The notes below the pieces were generated by a model. That model saw only the letters and a list, made by a program, of their open reading frames with translations, did not search any database and had not been told where the DNA came from. The translations under genes were made by a program, and so were the position numbers. 64,000 nucleotides of DNA, taken from assembly GCA_964016885.1 (NCBI GenBank), contig CAXHJY010000276.1:20591-84590 (forward strand), in the 5' to 3' direction. Positions 3,730 to 30,618 of the stretch are shown here, piece by piece. Source of the stretch: Eledone cirrhosa. Its lineage: Eukaryota. Position 1 is the stretch's first letter; each line of letters starts with the position of its first letter.

Positions 3730-4351
3730 ATGACAATTACGAGACTCTACCACAAGACAGATACCACTCACTTGGACATCTAGACATGTGCAAACGATAG
3801 GACACCCAAATTCCAAGTCTTCTCACTTTATCTTTGCACTGACAGTACAACAGACCAAATACGAATAAATAAGGAAAATATGGTTATTCAAAATTGTAGA
3901 CCAGCATTAAATATAGTTTAATATACGTTAATATGTTAACAGCATAACATGTTAACGAGCCACACATACACACAAACACACATACATAACACCATTCTCT
4001 ATATTCGAAAATAAAAGACCAGAGCTAAATATATTTTAAAATACGTTAATATTTTAACACCTTAACATGCTAACCTACCCCCTCCCCCCACACACACAGA
4101 CATAACACCCTTCTTCATTTCTACTAATGGAATCATTTTTATTTCTATTATCAACACGGTAAACACACACACCCGCACACACAAACATATATATTTCTCT
4201 TTTCTACCCTGCCACCACTATCGCCGCCGCCACCACTATCGACACACATTCAATTTATTTTAATAGAAAGTCTGAATTTTGTCACCTCAGCACGACATCA
4301 GCCATACTCACTGAACCAGAACTATTTCTCCCCTCCCATTTCTTGACCATT

Positions 4352-4537
4352 GGTGTATTGGCAGTATCGGTAGAGAGTCGGACACCATGCTTTCCAGCAT
4401 AGTTACGTCCCTTTACAGTCTGAGTTCAAATCCCGCCGAGGTTTACTTTGCCTTTCATCCTTACGGGGTCAATAAAATAAAGTACCAGTAATACACTGAG
4501 TAATTGCTGGCCTTGTGCCTAAAGTAGAAACAATTAT
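4352..4537 (+). mobile_element. tRNA-derived SINE family A (representative copy)
   Basis: A-box-like TGGCAGTATCGG, B-box GAGTTCAAATCC, body cctttcatccttacggggtc.ataaaataaagtaccagt, AT-rich tail. More than 20 full or partial copies, e.g. 15045-15245(-), 45608-45773(+), 55470-55680(-), 56640-56850(-). Confidence 0.85.
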
Positions 4538-4892
4538 CTTTTGTTAGCCACAAAACTTTCTATGACAAACCATCATTCTCTGGCACTTATATTATATGGC
4601 CAATCATGTGACTGTGAAAATGGTAGTAAAGAACTCTCAAAGTCAAACTGGCGCGAAATTTGATGTACTTATTCACGTGACAGACCCAACCTAATTGCAC
4701 TTATAAAAAAAAACAATTTGAGCCACATTTTTAAAGGCAAATACAATAAGAACTTTGGAACGCGAACTGGCGTGACAGTCATCAACCAACCAAATTAAAT
4801 AATTTAAAAACAAACAAAAAACAAAACAAAAAAAACACAGCAATTCGAGCCTCTCATTCCACATAAAACAGAAAGAACTTTCGAACACCAAC

Positions 4893-5090
4893 CAGATGCG
4901 AGAAAAACCACAAACCCTTCATCTCAATTCTACTTTTGAAAAGCATAAGAACTGTGAAACCGGTAAAGGAAATAAATAAATATTCTTAAAAAGACTCCAG
5001 TTGCATTTTCGATTTTTTTTCCTTATGCTTTAACCCGTGTAGGACATCTCGTTTTTTTATTAAAAAAAAAACTAATTTTCTTATATATAT
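4893..5090 (+). mobile_element. diverged copy of the 61-kb HHR element
   Basis: gatgcgagaaaaaccac...cttttgaaaagcataagaactgtgaaaccggtaaagga...gttgcattttcgatt...gtgtaggacatctcg aligns by eye to 61063-61274 and ends in TA repeats. Confidence 0.75.
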
Positions 5091-8804: not shown

Positions 8805-9100
8805 CACGAGCCCACACACATGCATATGTATATAGATATACATTGGAACCTTGTCAAAACATGTGTTACTGAAAGTTTCAAATCCTTAGACATAGTTTGA
8901 TTGTTCTTATCTCCTCCGCGTGCGAAGAATGTTGTTTTCCTTCCGTTTGCAGAGAACTCTGGGTGAAAGGGCCATAGACTGATTTATTGTGAAGCAGGCA
9001 TAAGGGGAGATTACTTTAGGGGAGCTGTTAGCAGGGACATCCATGAAGAAGGAGTTATATCTCTTGTTACGACATCTGAAATTACGCTGGACTATAAAAA

Positions 9101-9254
9101 TAATTGTTTCTACTTTTGGCACAAGGCCAGCAATTACTCAGTACATTACTGGTACTTTATTTTATCGACCCTGTAAGGATGAAAGGCAAAGTTAACCTCG
9201 GCGGGATTTGAACTCAGACCGTAAAGGGCGTCCGTCCCTCTACCGATACTGCCG
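9101..9254 (-). mobile_element. SINE family A copy
   Basis: Reverse complement of 4352-4537. Confidence 0.85.
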
Positions 9255-12990: not shown

Positions 12991-13326
12991 ATAATATAAG
13001 ATCAAAAGATGGTTAAAGGAGTTCCATGTATTTTATTATGCGCATTTCAAAAACAAACATTATCATGCAATAATATTTGTGTTTTCATCAGATAAAACAG
13101 GAGAACATGATATGAAGGCTAAAAAACACTTGTGGATAGTACAGTTTTAAATCAACATATGTTGATTTAAAACTGTACTATCCACAAGTGTTTTTTAGCC
13201 TTCATATCATGTTCTCCTGTTTTATCTGATGAAAACACAAATATTATTGCATGATAATGTTTGTTTTTGAAATGCGCATAATAAAATACATGGAACTCCT
13301 TTAACCATCTTTTGATCTTATATTAT
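12991..13326. repeat. perfect 336-bp palindrome between (TA)n arrays
   Basis: Centre at catatg (13158/13159); arms are reverse-complementary from ataatataag to cttatattat. Confidence 0.93.
13211..13296 (+). ncRNA. type I hammerhead ribozyme, second family (mirror copy on minus strand at 13021-13106)
   Basis: tgTTTTAT-CTGATGA(13226-13232)-long stem II-GAAA(13269-13272)-TGCGCA-TA^ATAAAAtaca; palindromic stem III ATGCGCAT; stem I extends gttc/gaac. Confidence 0.85.
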
Positions 13327-13415
13327 GCATACTCCAGTCCTACAAACTGTAGAGTGCTTCTTATCCGATATCTGCATTGCTTTATTGTACTACAATAAAA
13401 CTCACCTCCTACATT

Positions 13416-14623
<1,208 letters not shown>

Positions 14624-22248: not shown

Positions 22249-23911
<1,663 letters not shown>

Positions 23912-26900
23912 TTGGAATGAATGCTCTGAAATAGCGATATATATGTGAATATAGACACAGAATATTCGAAAATATTCTGTATGTTTATAATAAACATTTT
24001 GAAGACCTAATCGCTATAGAATAGAATACGTCACGTATTACAATTAGATTCTCGATAAAAGCAAGGGAAGTAAGTCTACGCGTTTCATTCTTGTTAGAAT
24101 TCATCAGGACTACATATCCAGTGCTTTCATCGAGAATGACACAGCTAGAGACTTATAGAATACTTAGCTGTGTACAGGAACTGGTTTGAAAGAGCGGTTG
24201 CCGGTCCGGCAGAAATTAGAAATTGGAATGAATGCTCTGAAATAGCGATATATATGTGAATATAGACACAGAATATTCGAAAATATTCTGTATGTTTATA
24301 ATAAACATTTTGAAGACCTAATCGCTATAGAATAGAATACGTCACGTATTACAATTAGATTCTCGATAAAAGCAAGGGAAGTAAGTCTACGCGTTTCATT
24401 CTTGTTAGAATTCATCAGGACTACATATCCAGTGCTTTCATCGAGAATGACACAGCTAGAGACTTATAGAATACTTAGCTGTGTACAGGAACTGGTTTGA
24501 AAGAGCGGTTGCCGGTCCGGCAGAAATTAGAAATTGGAATGAATGCTCTGAAATAGCGATATATATGTGAATATAGACACAGAATATTCGAAAATATTCT
24601 GTATGTTTATAATAAACATTTTGAAGACCTAATCGCTATAGAATAGAATACGTCACGTATTACAATTAGATTCTCGATAAAAGCAAGGGAAGTAAGTCTA
24701 CGCGTTTCATTCTTGTTAGAATTCATCAGGACTACATATCCAGTGCTTTCATCGAGAATGACACAGCTAGAGACTTATAGAATACTTAGCTGTGTACAGG
24801 AACTGGTTTGAAAGAGCGGTTGCCGGTCCGGCAGAAATTAGAAATTGGAATGAATGCTCTGAAATAGCGATATATATGTGAATATAGACACAGAATATTC
24901 GAAAATATTCTGTATGTTTATAATAAACATTTTGAAGACCTAATCGCTATAGAATAGAATACGTCACGTATTACAATTAGATTCTCGATAAAAGCAAGGG
25001 AAGTAAGTCTACGCGTTTCATTCTTGTTAGAATTCATCAGGACTACATATCCAGTGCTTTCATCGAGAATGACACAGCTAGAGACTTATAGAATACTTAG
25101 CTGTGTACAGGAACTGGTTTGAAAGAGCGGTTGCCGGTCCGGCAGAAATTAGAAATTGGAATGAATGCTCTGAAATAGCGATATATATGTGAATATAGAC
25201 ACAGAATATTCGAAAATATTCTGTATGTTTATAATAAACATTTTGAAGACCTAATCGCTATAGAATAGAATACGTCACGTATTACAATTAGATTCTCGAT
25301 AAAAGCAAGGGAAGTAAGTCTACGCGTTTCATTCTTGTTAGAATTCATCAGGACTACATATCCAGTGCTTTCATCGAGAATGACACAGCTAGAGACTTAT
25401 AGAATACTTAGCTGTGTACAGGAACTGGTTTGAAAGAGCGGTTGCCGGTCCGGCAGAAATTAGAAATTGGAATGAATGCTCTGAAATAGCGATATATATG
25501 TGAATATAGACACAGAATATTCGAAAATATTCTGTATGTTTATAATAAACATTTTGAAGACCTAATCGCTATAGAATAGAATACGTCACGTATTACAATT
25601 AGATTCTCGATAAAAGCAAGGGAAGTAAGTCTACGCGTTTCATTCTTGTTAGAATTCATCAGGACTACATATCCAGTGCTTTCATCGAGAATGACACAGC
25701 TAGAGACTTATAGAATACTTAGCTGTGTACAGGAACTGGTTTGAAAGAGCGGTTGCCGGTCCGGCAGAAATTAGAAATTGGAATGAATGCTCTGAAATAG
25801 CGATATATATGTGAATATAGACACAGAATATTCGAAAATATTCTGTATGTTTATAATAAACATTTTGAAGACCTAATCGCTATAGAATAGAATACGTCAC
25901 GTATTACAATTAGATTCTCGATAAAAGCAAGGGAAGTAAGTCTACGCGTTTCATTCTTGTTAGAATTCATCAGGACTACATATCCAGTGCTTTCATCGAG
26001 AATGACACAGCTAGAGACTTATAGAATACTTAGCTGTGTACAGGAACTGGTTTGAAAGAGCGGTTGCCGGTCCGGCAGAAATTAGAAATTGGAATGAATG
26101 CTCTGAAATAGCGATATATATGTGAATATAGACACAGAATATTCGAAAATATTCTGTATGTTTATAATAAACATTTTGAAGACCTAATCGCTATAGAATA
26201 GAATACGTCACGTATTACAATTAGATTCTCGATAAAAGCAAGGGAAGTAAGTCTACGCGTTTCATTCTTGTTAGAATTCATCAGGACTACATATCCAGTG
26301 CTTTCATCGAGAATGACACAGCTAGAGACTTATAGAATACTTAGCTGTGTACAGGAACTGGTTTGAAAGAGCGGTTGCCGGTCCGGCAGAAATTAGAAAT
26401 TGGAATGAATGCTCTGAAATAGCGATATATATGTGAATATAGACACAGAATATTCGAAAATATTCTGTATGTTTATAATAAACATTTTGAAGACCTAATC
26501 GCTATAGAATAGAATACGTCACGTATTACAATTAGATTCTCGATAAAAGCAAGGGAAGTAAGTCTACGCGTTTCATTCTTGTTAGAATTCATCAGGACTA
26601 CATATCCAGTGCTTTCATCGAGAATGACACAGCTAGAGACTTATAGAATACTTAGCTGTGTACAGGAACTGGTTTGAAAGAGCGGTTGCCGGTCCGGCAG
26701 AAATTAGAAATTGGAATGAATGCTCTGAAATAGCGATATATATGTGAATATAGACACAGAATATTCGAAAATATTCTGTATGTTTATAATAAACATTTTG
26801 AAGACCTAATCGCTATAGAATAGAATACGTCACGTATTACAATTAGATTCTCGATAAAAGCAAGGGAAGTAAGTCTACGCGTTTCATTCTTGTTAGAATT

Positions 26901-27997
26901 CATCAGGACTACATATCCAGTGCTTTCATCGAGAATGACACAGCTAGAGACTTATAGAATACTTAGCTGTGTACAGGAACTGGTTTGAAAGAGCGGTTGC
27001 CGGTCCGGCAGAAATTAGAAATTGGAATGAATGCTCTGAAATAGCGATATATATGTGAATATAGACACAGAATATTCGAAAATATTCTGTATGTTTATAA
27101 TAAACATTTTGAAGACCTAATCGCTATAGAATAGAATACGTCACGTATTACAATTAGATTCTCGATAAAAGCAAGGGAAGTAAGTCTACGCGTTTCATTC
27201 TTGTTAGAATTCATCAGGACTACATATCCAGTGCTTTCATCGAGAATGACACAGCTAGAGACTTATAGAATACTTAGCTGTGTACAGGAACTGGTTTGAA
27301 AGAGCGGTTGCCGGTCCGGCAGAAATTAGAAATTGGAATGAATGCTCTGAAATAGCGATATATATGTGAATATAGACACAGAATATTCGAAAATATTCTG
27401 TATGTTTATAATAAACATTTTGAAGACCTAATCGCTATAGAATAGAATACGTCACGTATTACAATTAGATTCTCGATAAAAGCAAGGGAAGTAAGTCTAC
27501 GCGTTTCATTCTTGTTAGAATTCATCAGGACTACATATCCAGTGCTTTCATCGAGAATGACACAGCTAGAGACTTATAGAATACTTAGCTGTGTACAGGA
27601 ACTGGTTTGAAAGAGCGGTTGCCGGTCCGGCAGAAATTAGAAATTGGAATGAATGCTCTGAAATAGCGATATATATGTGAATATAGACACAGAATATTCG
27701 AAAATATTCTGTATGTTTATAATAAACATTTTGAAGACCTAATCGCTATAGAATAGAATACGTCACGTATTACAATTAGATTCTCGATAAAAGCAAGGGA
27801 AGTAAGTCTACGCGTTTCATTCTTGTTAGAATTCATCAGGACTACATATCCAGTGCTTTCATCGAGAATGACACAGCTAGAGACTTATAGAATACTTAGC
27901 TGTGTACAGGAACTGGTTTGAAAGAGCGGTTGCCGGTCCGGCAGAAATTAGAAATTGGAATGAATGCTCTGAAATAGCGATATATATGTGAATATAG
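23912..27997 (-). mobile_element. retrozyme-like tandem array, left block (about 13.1 x 311 bp, HHR on minus strand)
   Basis: Exact 311-bp period (ttggaatg at 23912, 24223, ...). Each unit has the reverse complement of a type I HHR; 13 complete cores. The 3' end runs into (TA)n. Confidence 0.9.
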
Positions 27998-30618
27998 CGT
28001 AGACTTACTTCCCTTGCTTTTATCGAGAATCTAATTGTAATACGTGACGTATTCTATTCTATAGCGATTAGGTCTTCAAAATGTTTATTATAAACATACA
28101 GAATATTTTCGAATATTCTGTGTCTATATTCACATATATATCGCTATTTCAGAGCATTCATTCCAATTTCTAATTTCTGCCGGACCGGCAACCGCTCTTT
28201 CAAACCAGTTCCTGTACACAGCTAAGTATTCTATAAGTCTCTAGCTGTGTCATTCTCGATGAAAGCACTGGATATGTAGTCCTGATGAATTCTAACAAGA
28301 ATGAAACGCGTAGACTTACTTCCCTTGCTTTTATCGAGAATCTAATTGTAATACGTGACGTATTCTATTCTATAGCGATTAGGTCTTCAAAATGTTTATT
28401 ATAAACATACAGAATATTTTCGAATATTCTGTGTCTATATTCACATATATATCGCTATTTCAGAGCATTCATTCCAATTTCTAATTTCTGCCGGACCGGC
28501 AACCGCTCTTTCAAACCAGTTCCTGTACACAGCTAAGTATTCTATAAGTCTCTAGCTGTGTCATTCTCGATGAAAGCACTGGATATGTAGTCCTGATGAA
28601 TTCTAACAAGAATGAAACGCGTAGACTTACTTCCCTTGCTTTTATCGAGAATCTAATTGTAATACGTGACGTATTCTATTCTATAGCGATTAGGTCTTCA
28701 AAATGTTTATTATAAACATACAGAATATTTTCGAATATTCTGTGTCTATATTCACATATATATCGCTATTTCAGAGCATTCATTCCAATTTCTAATTTCT
28801 GCCGGACCGGCAACCGCTCTTTCAAACCAGTTCCTGTACACAGCTAAGTATTCTATAAGTCTCTAGCTGTGTCATTCTCGATGAAAGCACTGGATATGTA
28901 GTCCTGATGAATTCTAACAAGAATGAAACGCGTAGACTTACTTCCCTTGCTTTTATCGAGAATCTAATTGTAATACGTGACGTATTCTATTCTATAGCGA
29001 TTAGGTCTTCAAAATGTTTATTATAAACATACAGAATATTTTCGAATATTCTGTGTCTATATTCACATATATATCGCTATTTCAGAGCATTCATTCCAAT
29101 TTCTAATTTCTGCCGGACCGGCAACCGCTCTTTCAAACCAGTTCCTGTACACAGCTAAGTATTCTATAAGTCTCTAGCTGTGTCATTCTCGATGAAAGCA
29201 CTGGATATGTAGTCCTGATGAATTCTAACAAGAATGAAACGCGTAGACTTACTTCCCTTGCTTTTATCGAGAATCTAATTGTAATACGTGACGTATTCTA
29301 TTCTATAGCGATTAGGTCTTCAAAATGTTTATTATAAACATACAGAATATTTTCGAATATTCTGTGTCTATATTCACATATATATCGCTATTTCAGAGCA
29401 TTCATTCCAATTTCTAATTTCTGCCGGACCGGCAACCGCTCTTTCAAACCAGTTCCTGTACACAGCTAAGTATTCTATAAGTCTCTAGCTGTGTCATTCT
29501 CGATGAAAGCACTGGATATGTAGTCCTGATGAATTCTAACAAGAATGAAACGCGTAGACTTACTTCCCTTGCTTTTATCGAGAATCTAATTGTAATACGT
29601 GACGTATTCTATTCTATAGCGATTAGGTCTTCAAAATGTTTATTATAAACATACAGAATATTTTCGAATATTCTGTGTCTATATTCACATATATATCGCT
29701 ATTTCAGAGCATTCATTCCAATTTCTAATTTCTGCCGGACCGGCAACCGCTCTTTCAAACCAGTTCCTGTACACAGCTAAGTATTCTATAAGTCTCTAGC
29801 TGTGTCATTCTCGATGAAAGCACTGGATATGTAGTCCTGATGAATTCTAACAAGAATGAAACGCGTAGACTTACTTCCCTTGCTTTTATCGAGAATCTAA
29901 TTGTAATACGTGACGTATTCTATTCTATAGCGATTAGGTCTTCAAAATGTTTATTATAAACATACAGAATATTTTCGAATATTCTGTGTCTATATTCACA
30001 TATATATCGCTATTTCAGAGCATTCATTCCAATTTCTAATTTCTGCCGGACCGGCAACCGCTCTTTCAAACCAGTTCCTGTACACAGCTAAGTATTCTAT
30101 AAGTCTCTAGCTGTGTCATTCTCGATGAAAGCACTGGATATGTAGTCCTGATGAATTCTAACAAGAATGAAACGCGTAGACTTACTTCCCTTGCTTTTAT
30201 CGAGAATCTAATTGTAATACGTGACGTATTCTATTCTATAGCGATTAGGTCTTCAAAATGTTTATTATAAACATACAGAATATTTTCGAATATTCTGTGT
30301 CTATATTCACATATATATCGCTATTTCAGAGCATTCATTCCAATTTCTAATTTCTGCCGGACCGGCAACCGCTCTTTCAAACCAGTTCCTGTACACAGCT
30401 AAGTATTCTATAAGTCTCTAGCTGTGTCATTCTCGATGAAAGCACTGGATATGTAGTCCTGATGAATTCTAACAAGAATGAAACGCGTAGACTTACTTCC
30501 CTTGCTTTTATCGAGAATCTAATTGTAATACGTGACGTATTCTATTCTATAGCGATTAGGTCTTCAAAATGTTTATTATAAACATACAGAATATTTTCGA
30601 ATATTCTGTGTCTATATT
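27997..30618 (+). mobile_element. retrozyme-like tandem array, right inverted block (about 8.4 x 311 bp, HHR on plus strand)
   Basis: Reverse complement of the left-block unit; CTGATGA at 28282+311k for k=0..7; the 3' end runs into (TA)n. Confidence 0.9.
28276..28319 (+). ncRNA. type I hammerhead ribozyme (representative of 21 copies)
   Basis: gtAGTC-CTGATGA-ATTCT(aaca)AGAAT-GAAA-CGCG-TA^GACTtac: complete core, stem I agtc/gact, 5-bp stem II, minimal palindromic stem III (ACGCGT), GUA cleavage triplet after 28312. Confidence 0.9.

What the first reader, a model, noticed from the sequence alone, without database searches (positions are those of the whole stretch)
27985..28010. Foldback junction falls inside the ribozyme stem III, and the same holds in an unrelated family at 61063
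Seen: the inverted block starts at GCGTA^GACTT (27997), inside the ACGCGT palindrome and 5 nt before the cleavage site. At 61058-61063 the minus-strand partial copy starts at CCGGTA^AAGG, 6 nt before its cleavage site. In both cases the arms are head-to-head and both 3' ends run into TA-rich repeats. Inference: because (TA)n reads the same on both strands, both target strands could prime reverse transcription (twin priming), with one cDNA ending near the ribozyme-defined RNA end or at the stem III structure. This would be a repeatable insertion signature.
Basis: partly seen in the sequence, partly recalled or inferred. Interest (0 to 1): 0.82.

Follow-up and report, generated by a model that had tools for sequence, protein, structure and literature searches.

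The report
Two-armed retrozyme insertions; junction ignores ribozyme
A small non-coding repeat carrying a predicted self-cutting RNA motif sits in TA microsatellites as two back-to-back arms that end at two fixed points, likely because a Penelope-type jumping-gene enzyme copies one RNA from both sides of a DNA break, while the point where the arms meet is random and only by chance lies in the ribozyme here.

Summary
The coordinates are right, but the headline is a coincidence. The 27997 junction (5 nt before the cleavage site) and the 61063 junction (6 nt before) exist. In 87 mapped two-armed copies of the 311-bp family, 6 of 174 arm 5' ends fall in stem III (5.6 expected). A genome-wide count gave 26 hits there against 33, 54 and 79 in control windows. 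In the 61-kb family, 2 of 100 ends lie there and 63 cluster 57-76 nt upstream. A third family at 13158 joins 122 nt upstream.

Twin priming is supported and sharper than proposed. 93 of 100 loci are two-armed. One arm ends at +166, the other near +130, which is the Penelope 'tail'. Both arms share a haplotype (48 of 56; 6 by chance), and copying shows no pause at the cleavage site. The 61-kb family is the terminal repeat of a Neptune-like Penelope-like element.

Verdict: a non-LTR retrozyme with a Penelope-type two-start-site footprint. The scan noted the same layout before, in this genome and others.

The parts
23911..27997 (-). Family A long arm: 13.14 identical 311-bp units; 5' end at unit position 123, 3' end at +166 from the cleavage site (long start site)
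27997..30618 (+). Family A short arm: 8.43 units identical to the long arm's; 5' end at -5 (GCGTA^), 3' end at about +129 (short start site)
27997..27997 (.). Head-to-head junction with a 1-nt microhomology (G); its position in stem III is chance
28276..28319 (+). One of 21 type I hammerhead motifs (CUGAUGA core, 5-bp stem II, GAAA, short palindromic stem III ACGCGU); predicted cleavage after 28312
   Evidence: Rfam HH9 weak match E 0.07
22307..23910 (.). (TA)n-rich target, left flank
30619..30673 (.). (TA)n target, right flank; not a mirror of the left flank
60981..61063 (-). Family B short arm (-6 to about +78), terminal repeat (pLTR) of a Neptune-like Penelope-like element
61063..61274 (+). 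Family B long arm (-71 to about +142); hammerhead variant with UUGAAAA core at 61098-61140, predicted cleavage after 61133
61345..61558 (-). Separate family B single-arm copy in the adjacent TA tract (5 differences in 212 nt from the long arm)
12991..13158 (-). Family C short arm (-122 to about +46) of a third head-to-head hammerhead element in (TA)n
13159..13416 (+). Family C long arm (-122 to about +136); terminal repeat of another GIY-YIG element; junction 122 nt upstream of the predicted cleavage site

Best explanation
The 311-bp array is a non-coding hammerhead retrozyme inserted in (TA)n as two head-to-head arms with two fixed outer ends 36 nt apart, likely written by a Penelope-like reverse transcriptase/GIY-YIG endonuclease that primes cDNA from both cut target strands on one, probably circular, RNA. 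Shown by sequence: one arm ends at +166 and the other at about +130; both outer flanks are (TA)n; inner 5' ends are uniform around the unit; arm lengths are roughly exponential; both arms carry the same haplotype; junctions have excess short microhomology. Inferred: (1) a Penelope-like protein, possibly a dimer, nicks both strands of (TA)n; (2) one strand primes at the long internal start site and the other at the short one; (3) both enzymes run round the uncleaved or re-ligated template, past the ribozyme site, until they drop off at random; (4) the two cDNA 3' ends are joined by microhomology and filled in. On the linear RNAs of the autonomous families B and C the same process usually runs to the RNA 5' end (inferred transcription start at about -72 and -122), upstream of the uncleaved ribozyme. 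The ribozyme would act earlier, in making monomers and circles, and does not set the junction. The partner element that mobilises family A was not identified.
For: Two arms: 93 of 100 loci chosen by the long end (first 100 of 1034 matches, all on C1). The second arm ends at +119..+140 in 85 of 85 with a visible end and never at +166. Among loci chosen by unit homology only, 14 of 14 resolved two-armed loci (window included) have one long and one short end. TA-rich flanks: 77 of 87 long, 76 of 85 short. Same rule in B: the partner arm ends at +139..+143 in 45 of 50. In C: 17 of 17 adjacent pairs. Independent arms: short arm longer than long arm in 39 of 87; 5' phases not matched (7 within 10 nt vs 5.9 expected). 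One template: identical majority haplotype in 48 of 56 loci vs permutation mean 6.1 (max 14), 11 private to their locus; weaker in B (n=10, 0.6 vs 1.36 differences, p 0.001). Continuous monomer-type template: 858 passes of the cleavage site without excess stops; over 62 kb of arm overlap, 61 variants were private to one arm and in-register sharing occurred at one locus only. Microhomology mean 2.0 nt vs 0.75 expected. B is a pLTR downstream of a YLDD- and GIY-YIG-containing ORF (Pfam PF01541, E 3.4e-7). In vitro precedent: an anole Penelope-like protein cuts and extends both strands, starts at two internal sites that define the tail, is predicted to dimerise and uses uncleaved RNA (PMC11167929).
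Against: No RNA evidence here: expression, cleavage and circularity are untested. No autonomous partner with similarity to unit A was found. In the in vitro work start sites did not differ between strands, so the strict long+short pairing is not explained by it. L131 carries variants in register in the first two units of both arms, pointing to a multimeric template or arm-to-arm conversion; L104 has a variant in four units of one arm only, pointing to two templates or a switch. L246 in family B is short+short. B is often one-armed: 6914 long-end against 1923 short-end matches. Two identical RNA molecules from one source locus cannot be told from one molecule. A faint short-arm excess in stem III (6 of 87, p 0.06) was not borne out genome-wide.
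Confidence: 0.7

Rival explanations
1. One reading: twin priming in which one cDNA stops at stem III or at the ribozyme-made RNA end, giving a repeatable junction.
For: Two of the window's three junctions have one arm starting 5-6 nt before the site. Short arms of A: 6 of 87 in stem III+NUH vs 2.8 expected, one-sided p 0.06. About 6 of 23 genome-wide hits start at -3.
Against: 6 of 174 ends vs 5.6 expected, and 0 of 174 at -6..-4. Equal stop rate. Genome-wide 26 hits (3 are insertion variants, not junctions) vs 33, 54 and 79 (about 20 of the 79 from a variant subfamily) in equal-design control windows. Of those typed, 8 are long arms and 2 short. B: 2 of 100 vs 2.3 expected. C: 0 of 34.
Confidence: 0.04
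2. Single priming followed by fold-back: one cDNA, or an antisense RNA as proposed for rotifer Penelope elements (PMC3846280), self-primes to make the inverted arm, and the endonuclease then cuts at a fixed site to leave the tail at one end.
For: It explains the shared haplotype directly. Near-perfect palindromic junctions occur in B and C. The short site in all three families is followed by a TA-like motif that could be cut. Craig et al. attribute the tail to endonuclease-mediated resolution.
Against: A fold-back copy cannot be longer than the first cDNA or extend beyond its start, yet the short arm is longer in 39 of 87 (26 by more than a unit). Fold-back predicts matched 5' phases, seen no more than by chance. 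The palindromic junctions of B and C follow from both cDNAs reaching the same RNA 5' end.
Confidence: 0.08
3. Twin priming as in the best explanation, but on linear multimeric read-through transcripts or on two RNA molecules, with no circle.
For: L131 shows in-register shared variants in both arms and L104 an arm-specific haplotype run. B and C plainly use linear RNAs with a fixed 5' end. Uncleaved RNA is the main substrate in vitro.
Against: Arrays carry scattered variants (70 of 602 units differ from their arm majority), yet no single-unit variant was shared in register over 62 kb of overlap, as copying such arrays would predict. Arms reach 27-30 units with no length ceiling seen.
Confidence: 0.13
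4. DNA-level origin: single insertions expanded by unequal crossover (as discussed in bioRxiv 10.64898/2026.07.22.740005) and inverted later by repair or recombination.
For: Tandem arrays can expand locally; arm-to-arm conversion could homogenise arms.
Against: It does not explain two fixed, different 3' ends on opposite strands at 93 of 100 dispersed loci, the same rule in non-tandem families B and C, or non-integer unit numbers set by random 5' ends.
Confidence: 0.03
5. Assembly or sequencing artefact (fold-back chimeric long reads).
For: The arms are 100% identical, the window lies on a small contig, and the 27997 junction itself was not bridged by any listed contig piece.
Against: Flanks are not mirrored and the two outer ends differ. 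The layout recurs at 93 of 100 chromosome-scale loci. Contigs of public runs of one study show inversion joints at many unit positions (15 of 26 joints listed).
Confidence: 0.02

Closest known systems
Metazoan non-LTR retrozymes (PMC7229834; bioRxiv 10.64898/2026.07.22.740005)
   Same: Tandem non-coding unit of 170-400 nt, type I hammerhead in each unit, low GC (35%), short palindromic helix III, co-occurrence with Penelope-like elements; proposed circular RNA template copied into tandem cDNA.
   Different: The passages and Discussions read describe tandem copies only: no head-to-head two-armed insertions, fixed paired 3' ends or (TA)n targeting. Their supplements were not seen. Here these features are the rule (93 of 100).
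Penelope-like elements of the Neptune, Poseidon and Naiad clades: inverted 5'-truncated copy plus 30-40-bp tail (PMC8557442, PMC3846280)
   Same: Head-to-head inverted copy at the 5' end, tail at one end only, (TA)n preference, hammerhead in the pLTR; families B and C are such pLTRs.
   Different: Family A has no ORF and is a multi-unit array on both arms. Tails here are about 36 (A), 63 (B) and 90 nt (C). The published explanations are self-priming on an antisense template or endonuclease resolution; the counts here favour priming from both strands.
Anole Poseidon element PAc in vitro (PMC11167929)
   Same: Both target strands cut and extended, AT-rich targets, two internal start sites bounding the tail, predicted dimer, ribozyme cleavage not needed for insertion.
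   Different: That study saw no start-site difference between strands and did not tie the two sites to the two arms of one insertion; it tested a linear RNA of an autonomous element.
LINE-1 twin priming (recalled, no call)
   Same: Both target strands prime cDNA, giving a 5' inversion joined by microhomology.
   Different: In LINE-1 the second primer lands at a variable internal site and the two parts do not overlap. Here both starts are fixed, 36 nt apart, and the arms copy the same sequence.

Membership tests
Non-LTR retrozyme (family A) | Tandem unit of about 170-400 nt | tested here: met
   311-bp unit in the window; 609 of 694 units elsewhere are 310 bp
Non-LTR retrozyme (family A) | Type I hammerhead in each unit | tested here: met
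   21 motif matches with stems I-III and full core; Rfam HH9 only below gathering score, E 0.07
Non-LTR retrozyme (family A) | Non-coding, GC below 50% | tested here: met
   GC 35%; longest ATG frame 39 aa on a multimer; no element body in the arms of 117 fetched loci
Non-LTR retrozyme (family A) | Dispersed, mobile copies | tested here: met
   1034 exact long-end matches on both strands, 0 for the reversed control
Non-LTR retrozyme (family A) | Expressed as self-cleaved linear and circular RNA | not testable with these tools
   No RNA run available; circularity only inferred
Non-LTR retrozyme (family A) | Target-site duplication longer than 4 bp when present | tested here: inconclusive
   Both flanks are (TA)n, so a duplication cannot be read
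Penelope-like element insertion footprint (A, B, C) | Inverted 5'-truncated copy at the 5' end | tested here: met
   A 93 of 100; B 54 of 88 short-end loci, 19 more unresolved; C 17 distinct adjacent pairs among 30 loci
Penelope-like element insertion footprint (A, B, C) | Tail extension on one end only | tested here: met
   A +130/+166; B +78/+142; C +46/+136
Autonomous Penelope-like element (family B) | RT followed by C-terminal GIY-YIG endonuclease upstream of the pLTR | tested here: met
   L230 ORF piece of 382 aa with YLDD (RT motif, recalled) and Pfam GIY-YIG E 3.4e-7; this copy's ORF is in two frames; no Pfam RT hit
Neptune clade (family B) | CX2-5CxxC motif before GIY-YIG and phylogenetic placement | tested here: inconclusive
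   Motif present (definition from PMC8557442); no tree built, and Nematis shares the motif
Autonomous Penelope-like element (family C) | GIY-YIG ORF end upstream of the pLTR | tested here: inconclusive
   188-aa ORF end, Pfam GIY-YIG E 0.0053, below cut-off; 'Poseidon-like' is recalled from its CNC..CPL motif; RT part not fetched
Non-autonomous partner of family B or C (family A) | Sequence similarity of unit A to the partner's pLTR | tested here: not met
   No blastn match better than E 3.4 between unit A and the window's B and C pLTRs; other Penelope-like families not compared

The most novel reading that the evidence does not exclude
Penelope-like retrotransposition is intrinsically double-barrelled. 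A dimeric RT-endonuclease assigns one cut target strand to each of two fixed start sites on the same RNA molecule, so a ribozyme circle is rolled out in both directions from one break. This single rule would explain the inverted copy and the one-sided tail of Penelope-like elements and prove that they mobilise animal retrozymes through circular RNA.
Probability: 0.45. Interest if true: 0.72.

Novelty: new variant of a known kind. Interest (0 to 1): 0.5.

Why it matters
How Penelope-like elements make their head-to-head inverted copies and one-sided tail is stated as open in the papers read (PMC8557442), as is how retrozymes move (PMC7229834; bioRxiv 10.64898/2026.07.22.740005). About a thousand young, near-identical two-armed copies give countable footprints: paired fixed start sites, a shared template and no pause at the ribozyme site. 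They link the in vitro two-site, two-strand activity (PMC11167929) to genomes and define a small RNA substrate for a direct test. The negative result matters too: the ribozyme does not set the insertion junction. The element class and layout are known, and this scan has noted the pattern before, so the gain is mechanistic precision, not a new system.

Tried and rejected
Stem III enrichment was tested four ways and rejected. An apparent pile-up of junctions at unit positions 4 and 296-297 was an artefact of common unit variants (a 1-nt deletion at +3, a substitution at 296) and vanished with variant-aware mapping. The whole-window Rfam scan listed only microsatellite-driven miRNA hits among the 150 of 280 rows shown; the family B ribozyme has no Rfam hammerhead match. 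A short-end pattern count for A (1300) also matches an internal variant and was not used. Sequencing runs: no RNA holder listed; the 27997 junction was not bridged by a listed piece, which proves nothing either way. No solved-structure match for the family B ORF piece. No similarity of unit A to the B or C pLTR. The minimum-energy fold of the linear monomer does not form the hammerhead, although the unit folds better than shuffles (z -5.4). In one search, 19 of 34 'single' rows end at -241 or further upstream, many where chaining broke in simple repeats, and were left out as unresolved; 4 of 54 inverted rows whose outer end was not resolved were dropped before the count of 100 ends, and one locus of 89 lacked the pattern. 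In family A, 6 inverted loci failed automatic mapping (none has an end in 302-311's listing), 4 are single-armed and 3 unresolved. Literature searches: 'retrozyme'+'head-to-head' 0 papers; 'twin priming'+'Penelope' 3 papers, listing only, none on this mechanism by title; searches added no paper on two-armed retrozymes. The library lacks most subscription papers.
Full report
What is in the window. The finding lies at the centre of a 6.7-kb array of a 311-bp unit in a 3.0-Gb genome. A minus-strand arm runs 23911-27997 (13.14 units) and a plus-strand arm 27997-30618 (8.43 units); the units are identical. Each full unit carries a type I hammerhead motif (21 matches; Rfam gives only a weak HH9 match, E 0.07). 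Numbering from the predicted cleavage site, the plus arm starts at -5 and the minus arm at +123, sharing one G. The outer ends differ: +166 on the left, about +129 on the right, both running into (TA)n, and the flanks are not mirror images. At 61 kb, a minus arm (-6 to about +78) and a plus arm (-71 to about +142) meet at 61063, and a third, separate copy lies tail-to-tail beyond the next TA tract.

Is the junction tied to stem III? No. A pattern for the long end of family A matched 1034 places (control 0). I fetched the first 100, all on contig C1. 93 have an inverted second arm, 4 are single-armed and 3 unresolved. In the 87 mapped with variant-aware matching, 6 of 174 arm 5' ends fall in the 10 nt of stem III+NUH (5.6 expected) and 0 of 174 at -6..-4. 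Ten equal bins do not depart from uniform (p 0.17). The arms pass the cleavage site 858 times, and the stop rate in that 10-nt stretch (7.0e-4 per nt) equals the mean (6.5e-4). Short arms alone showed a faint excess (6 of 87, p 0.06), so I counted junctions genome-wide with patterns of equal design. The cleavage-site window gave 26 hits, 3 of them insertion variants, against 33, 54 and 79 in three control windows (about 20 of the 79 are a variant subfamily). Of the 26, 8 could be typed as long arms and 2 as short. In family B, 89 loci chosen by the short end (89 of 1923 matches) gave 50 clean two-armed copies. 63 of their 100 5' ends lie at -76..-57 and 2 at -10..-1 (2.3 expected from the remainder). 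In family C, 0 of 34 ends in 17 adjacent pairs lie near the site; short arms start at -119..-122 (long arms there are biased by the full-length query).

What is repeatable. The outer ends are. In A the second arm ends at +119..+140 in 85 of 85 loci with a visible end and never at +166. The spread comes from an internal ATATATAT that blends into the target and from variants near the end. Because those loci were chosen by the long end, I also used 17 loci found by unit homology alone: with the window, 14 of 14 resolved two-armed loci have one long and one short end. B follows the rule (partner arm ends at +139..+143 in 45 of 50; one short+short case), and so does C (17 of 17). The offsets are about 36, 63 and 90 nt. 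This is the Penelope 'tail', described as a 30-40-bp extension often present at only one end, next to an inverted 5'-truncated copy (PMC8557442, passages; PMC3846280, passages; PMC8969392, passages). Family B is the terminal repeat of an element whose ORF ends in YLDD, a CX4CXXC motif and a GIY-YIG domain (Pfam E 3.4e-7), hence Neptune-like; no tree was built. C follows a weaker GIY-YIG ORF end (E 0.0053).

How the two arms arise. The arms behave as two separate cDNAs. The short arm is the longer one in 39 of 87 loci, the two 5' phases are not matched (7 within 10 nt vs 5.9 expected), and lengths fit an exponential, with a modest length correlation (rho 0.31). A fold-back copy could not exceed the first cDNA, which argues against self-priming, the explanation proposed for rotifer elements. 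Junctions show excess microhomology (mean 2.0 nt vs 0.75; 65 junctions with 0-6 nt overlap, 21 with inserted letters of which some are mapping slips at nearby variants). Yet both arms come from one template: the same majority haplotype in 48 of 56 loci (permutation mean 6.1, maximum 14), 11 of them private to their locus; B agrees more weakly (n=10). Over 62 kb where the arms overlap, 61 variants were private to one arm and in-register sharing occurred at one locus only. That fits repeated copying of a monomer circle better than copying an existing, slightly mutated array. Against a simple picture, L131 switches haplotype in register in both arms and L104 in one arm only. Two identical RNAs from one source locus cannot be excluded.

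Mechanism. Shown: the geometry and statistics above. Inferred: a Penelope-like protein cuts both strands of (TA)n, each strand primes at one of two internal start sites, both enzymes run through the ribozyme site and drop off at random, and the cDNA ends are joined by microhomology. The anole element PAc does the first steps in vitro: it extends both strands, starts at two sites that bound the tail, is predicted to be a dimer and does not need ribozyme cleavage (PMC11167929, main text read; supplements not seen). That work found no start-site difference between strands, so the strict long+short pairing is new information and unexplained. In B and C the 5' ends pile up well upstream of the ribozyme, at what is likely the transcription start, which again implies uncleaved template. 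Short palindromic helix III and dimer-dependent cleavage are ordinary for these ribozymes (PMC4209133, passages), so the ACGCGT and ACCGGT palindromes need no special role at the junction.

Artefact check. The layout recurs at chromosome-scale loci, flanks are asymmetric, and contigs of four public runs of one study contain inversion joints at many unit positions. The 27997 junction itself was not bridged by a listed piece.

Comparison and novelty. Family A meets the sequence criteria of metazoan non-LTR retrozymes (PMC7229834, passages and Discussion; bioRxiv 10.64898/2026.07.22.740005, first part, passages and Discussion); expression and circularity could not be tested. Both papers name Penelope-like elements as likely mobilisers and leave the mechanism open; neither text read mentions two-armed insertions, though their supplements were not seen. 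Searches for such a description found none. Earlier notes of this scan report the same two-armed layout for this family and others. My reading was set before I saw them, and they are not independent evidence. Verdict: the finding as titled is a coincidence (interest low); the underlying footprint is a real, well-quantified variant of known elements that makes an open mechanism testable (interest 0.5).

Noticed in passing
L079, L211, L246, L268 (family B) and L279 (family C), at the inner junction: Short reiterated copies of the element's own 5'-most bases (for example TCTCACA repeated) lie between the arms, as if the enzyme re-primed repeatedly at the RNA 5' end, or repair made templated insertions.
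   Followed up: no
family B about -73..-69 and family C about -122, e.g. window 61063 and 13159: Sharp 5'-end clusters, also in single-armed copies flanked by TA on both sides; likely transcription starts inside the terminal repeat.
   Followed up: partly
runs X4, X5, X7, X11 laid on window 28002-28623: Runs of four other organisms in four studies each hold one 340-nt contig covering just over one 310-nt unit (95-99% alike, depth 10-410, no flanks). Trace contamination from a very abundant repeat is most likely; a shared or travelling circle is not excluded.
   Followed up: partly
L061:4288-6143 and L072:4109-5973: Single-armed family A copies of exactly 6.0 units that start at the internal ATATATAT (position 133) with (TA)n on both sides, suggesting completion by annealing of the second target strand to that tract.
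   Followed up: no
L086, L161, L163: Junctions with 16-44 nt overlaps that use the unit's own inverted repeat (positions about 14-30 and 250-266), consistent with annealing of the two cDNA ends.
   Followed up: partly
L131 and L104: Haplotype switches within arrays: in register in both arms (L131) or in one arm only (L104).
   Followed up: partly
window 4640-5080: Older, diverged relative of family B (about 80% to the pLTR) with the same UUGAAAA hammerhead variant at 4930.
   Followed up: partly
window 59836-59946; related copies in L054: Another short element of about 110 bp in (TA)n, seen as inverted pairs in L054; no hammerhead found by my scan.
   Followed up: no
window 45877-46241: 32-nt tandem repeat (11.4 copies) containing CTGATGAG but no complete hammerhead core.
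   Followed up: partly
window 4350-4540, 9100-9230, 44710-44900, 45600-45780, 54120-54320: A dispersed 130-190-bp repeat, 89-95% alike between copies, on both strands; SINE-like, not examined.
   Followed up: no
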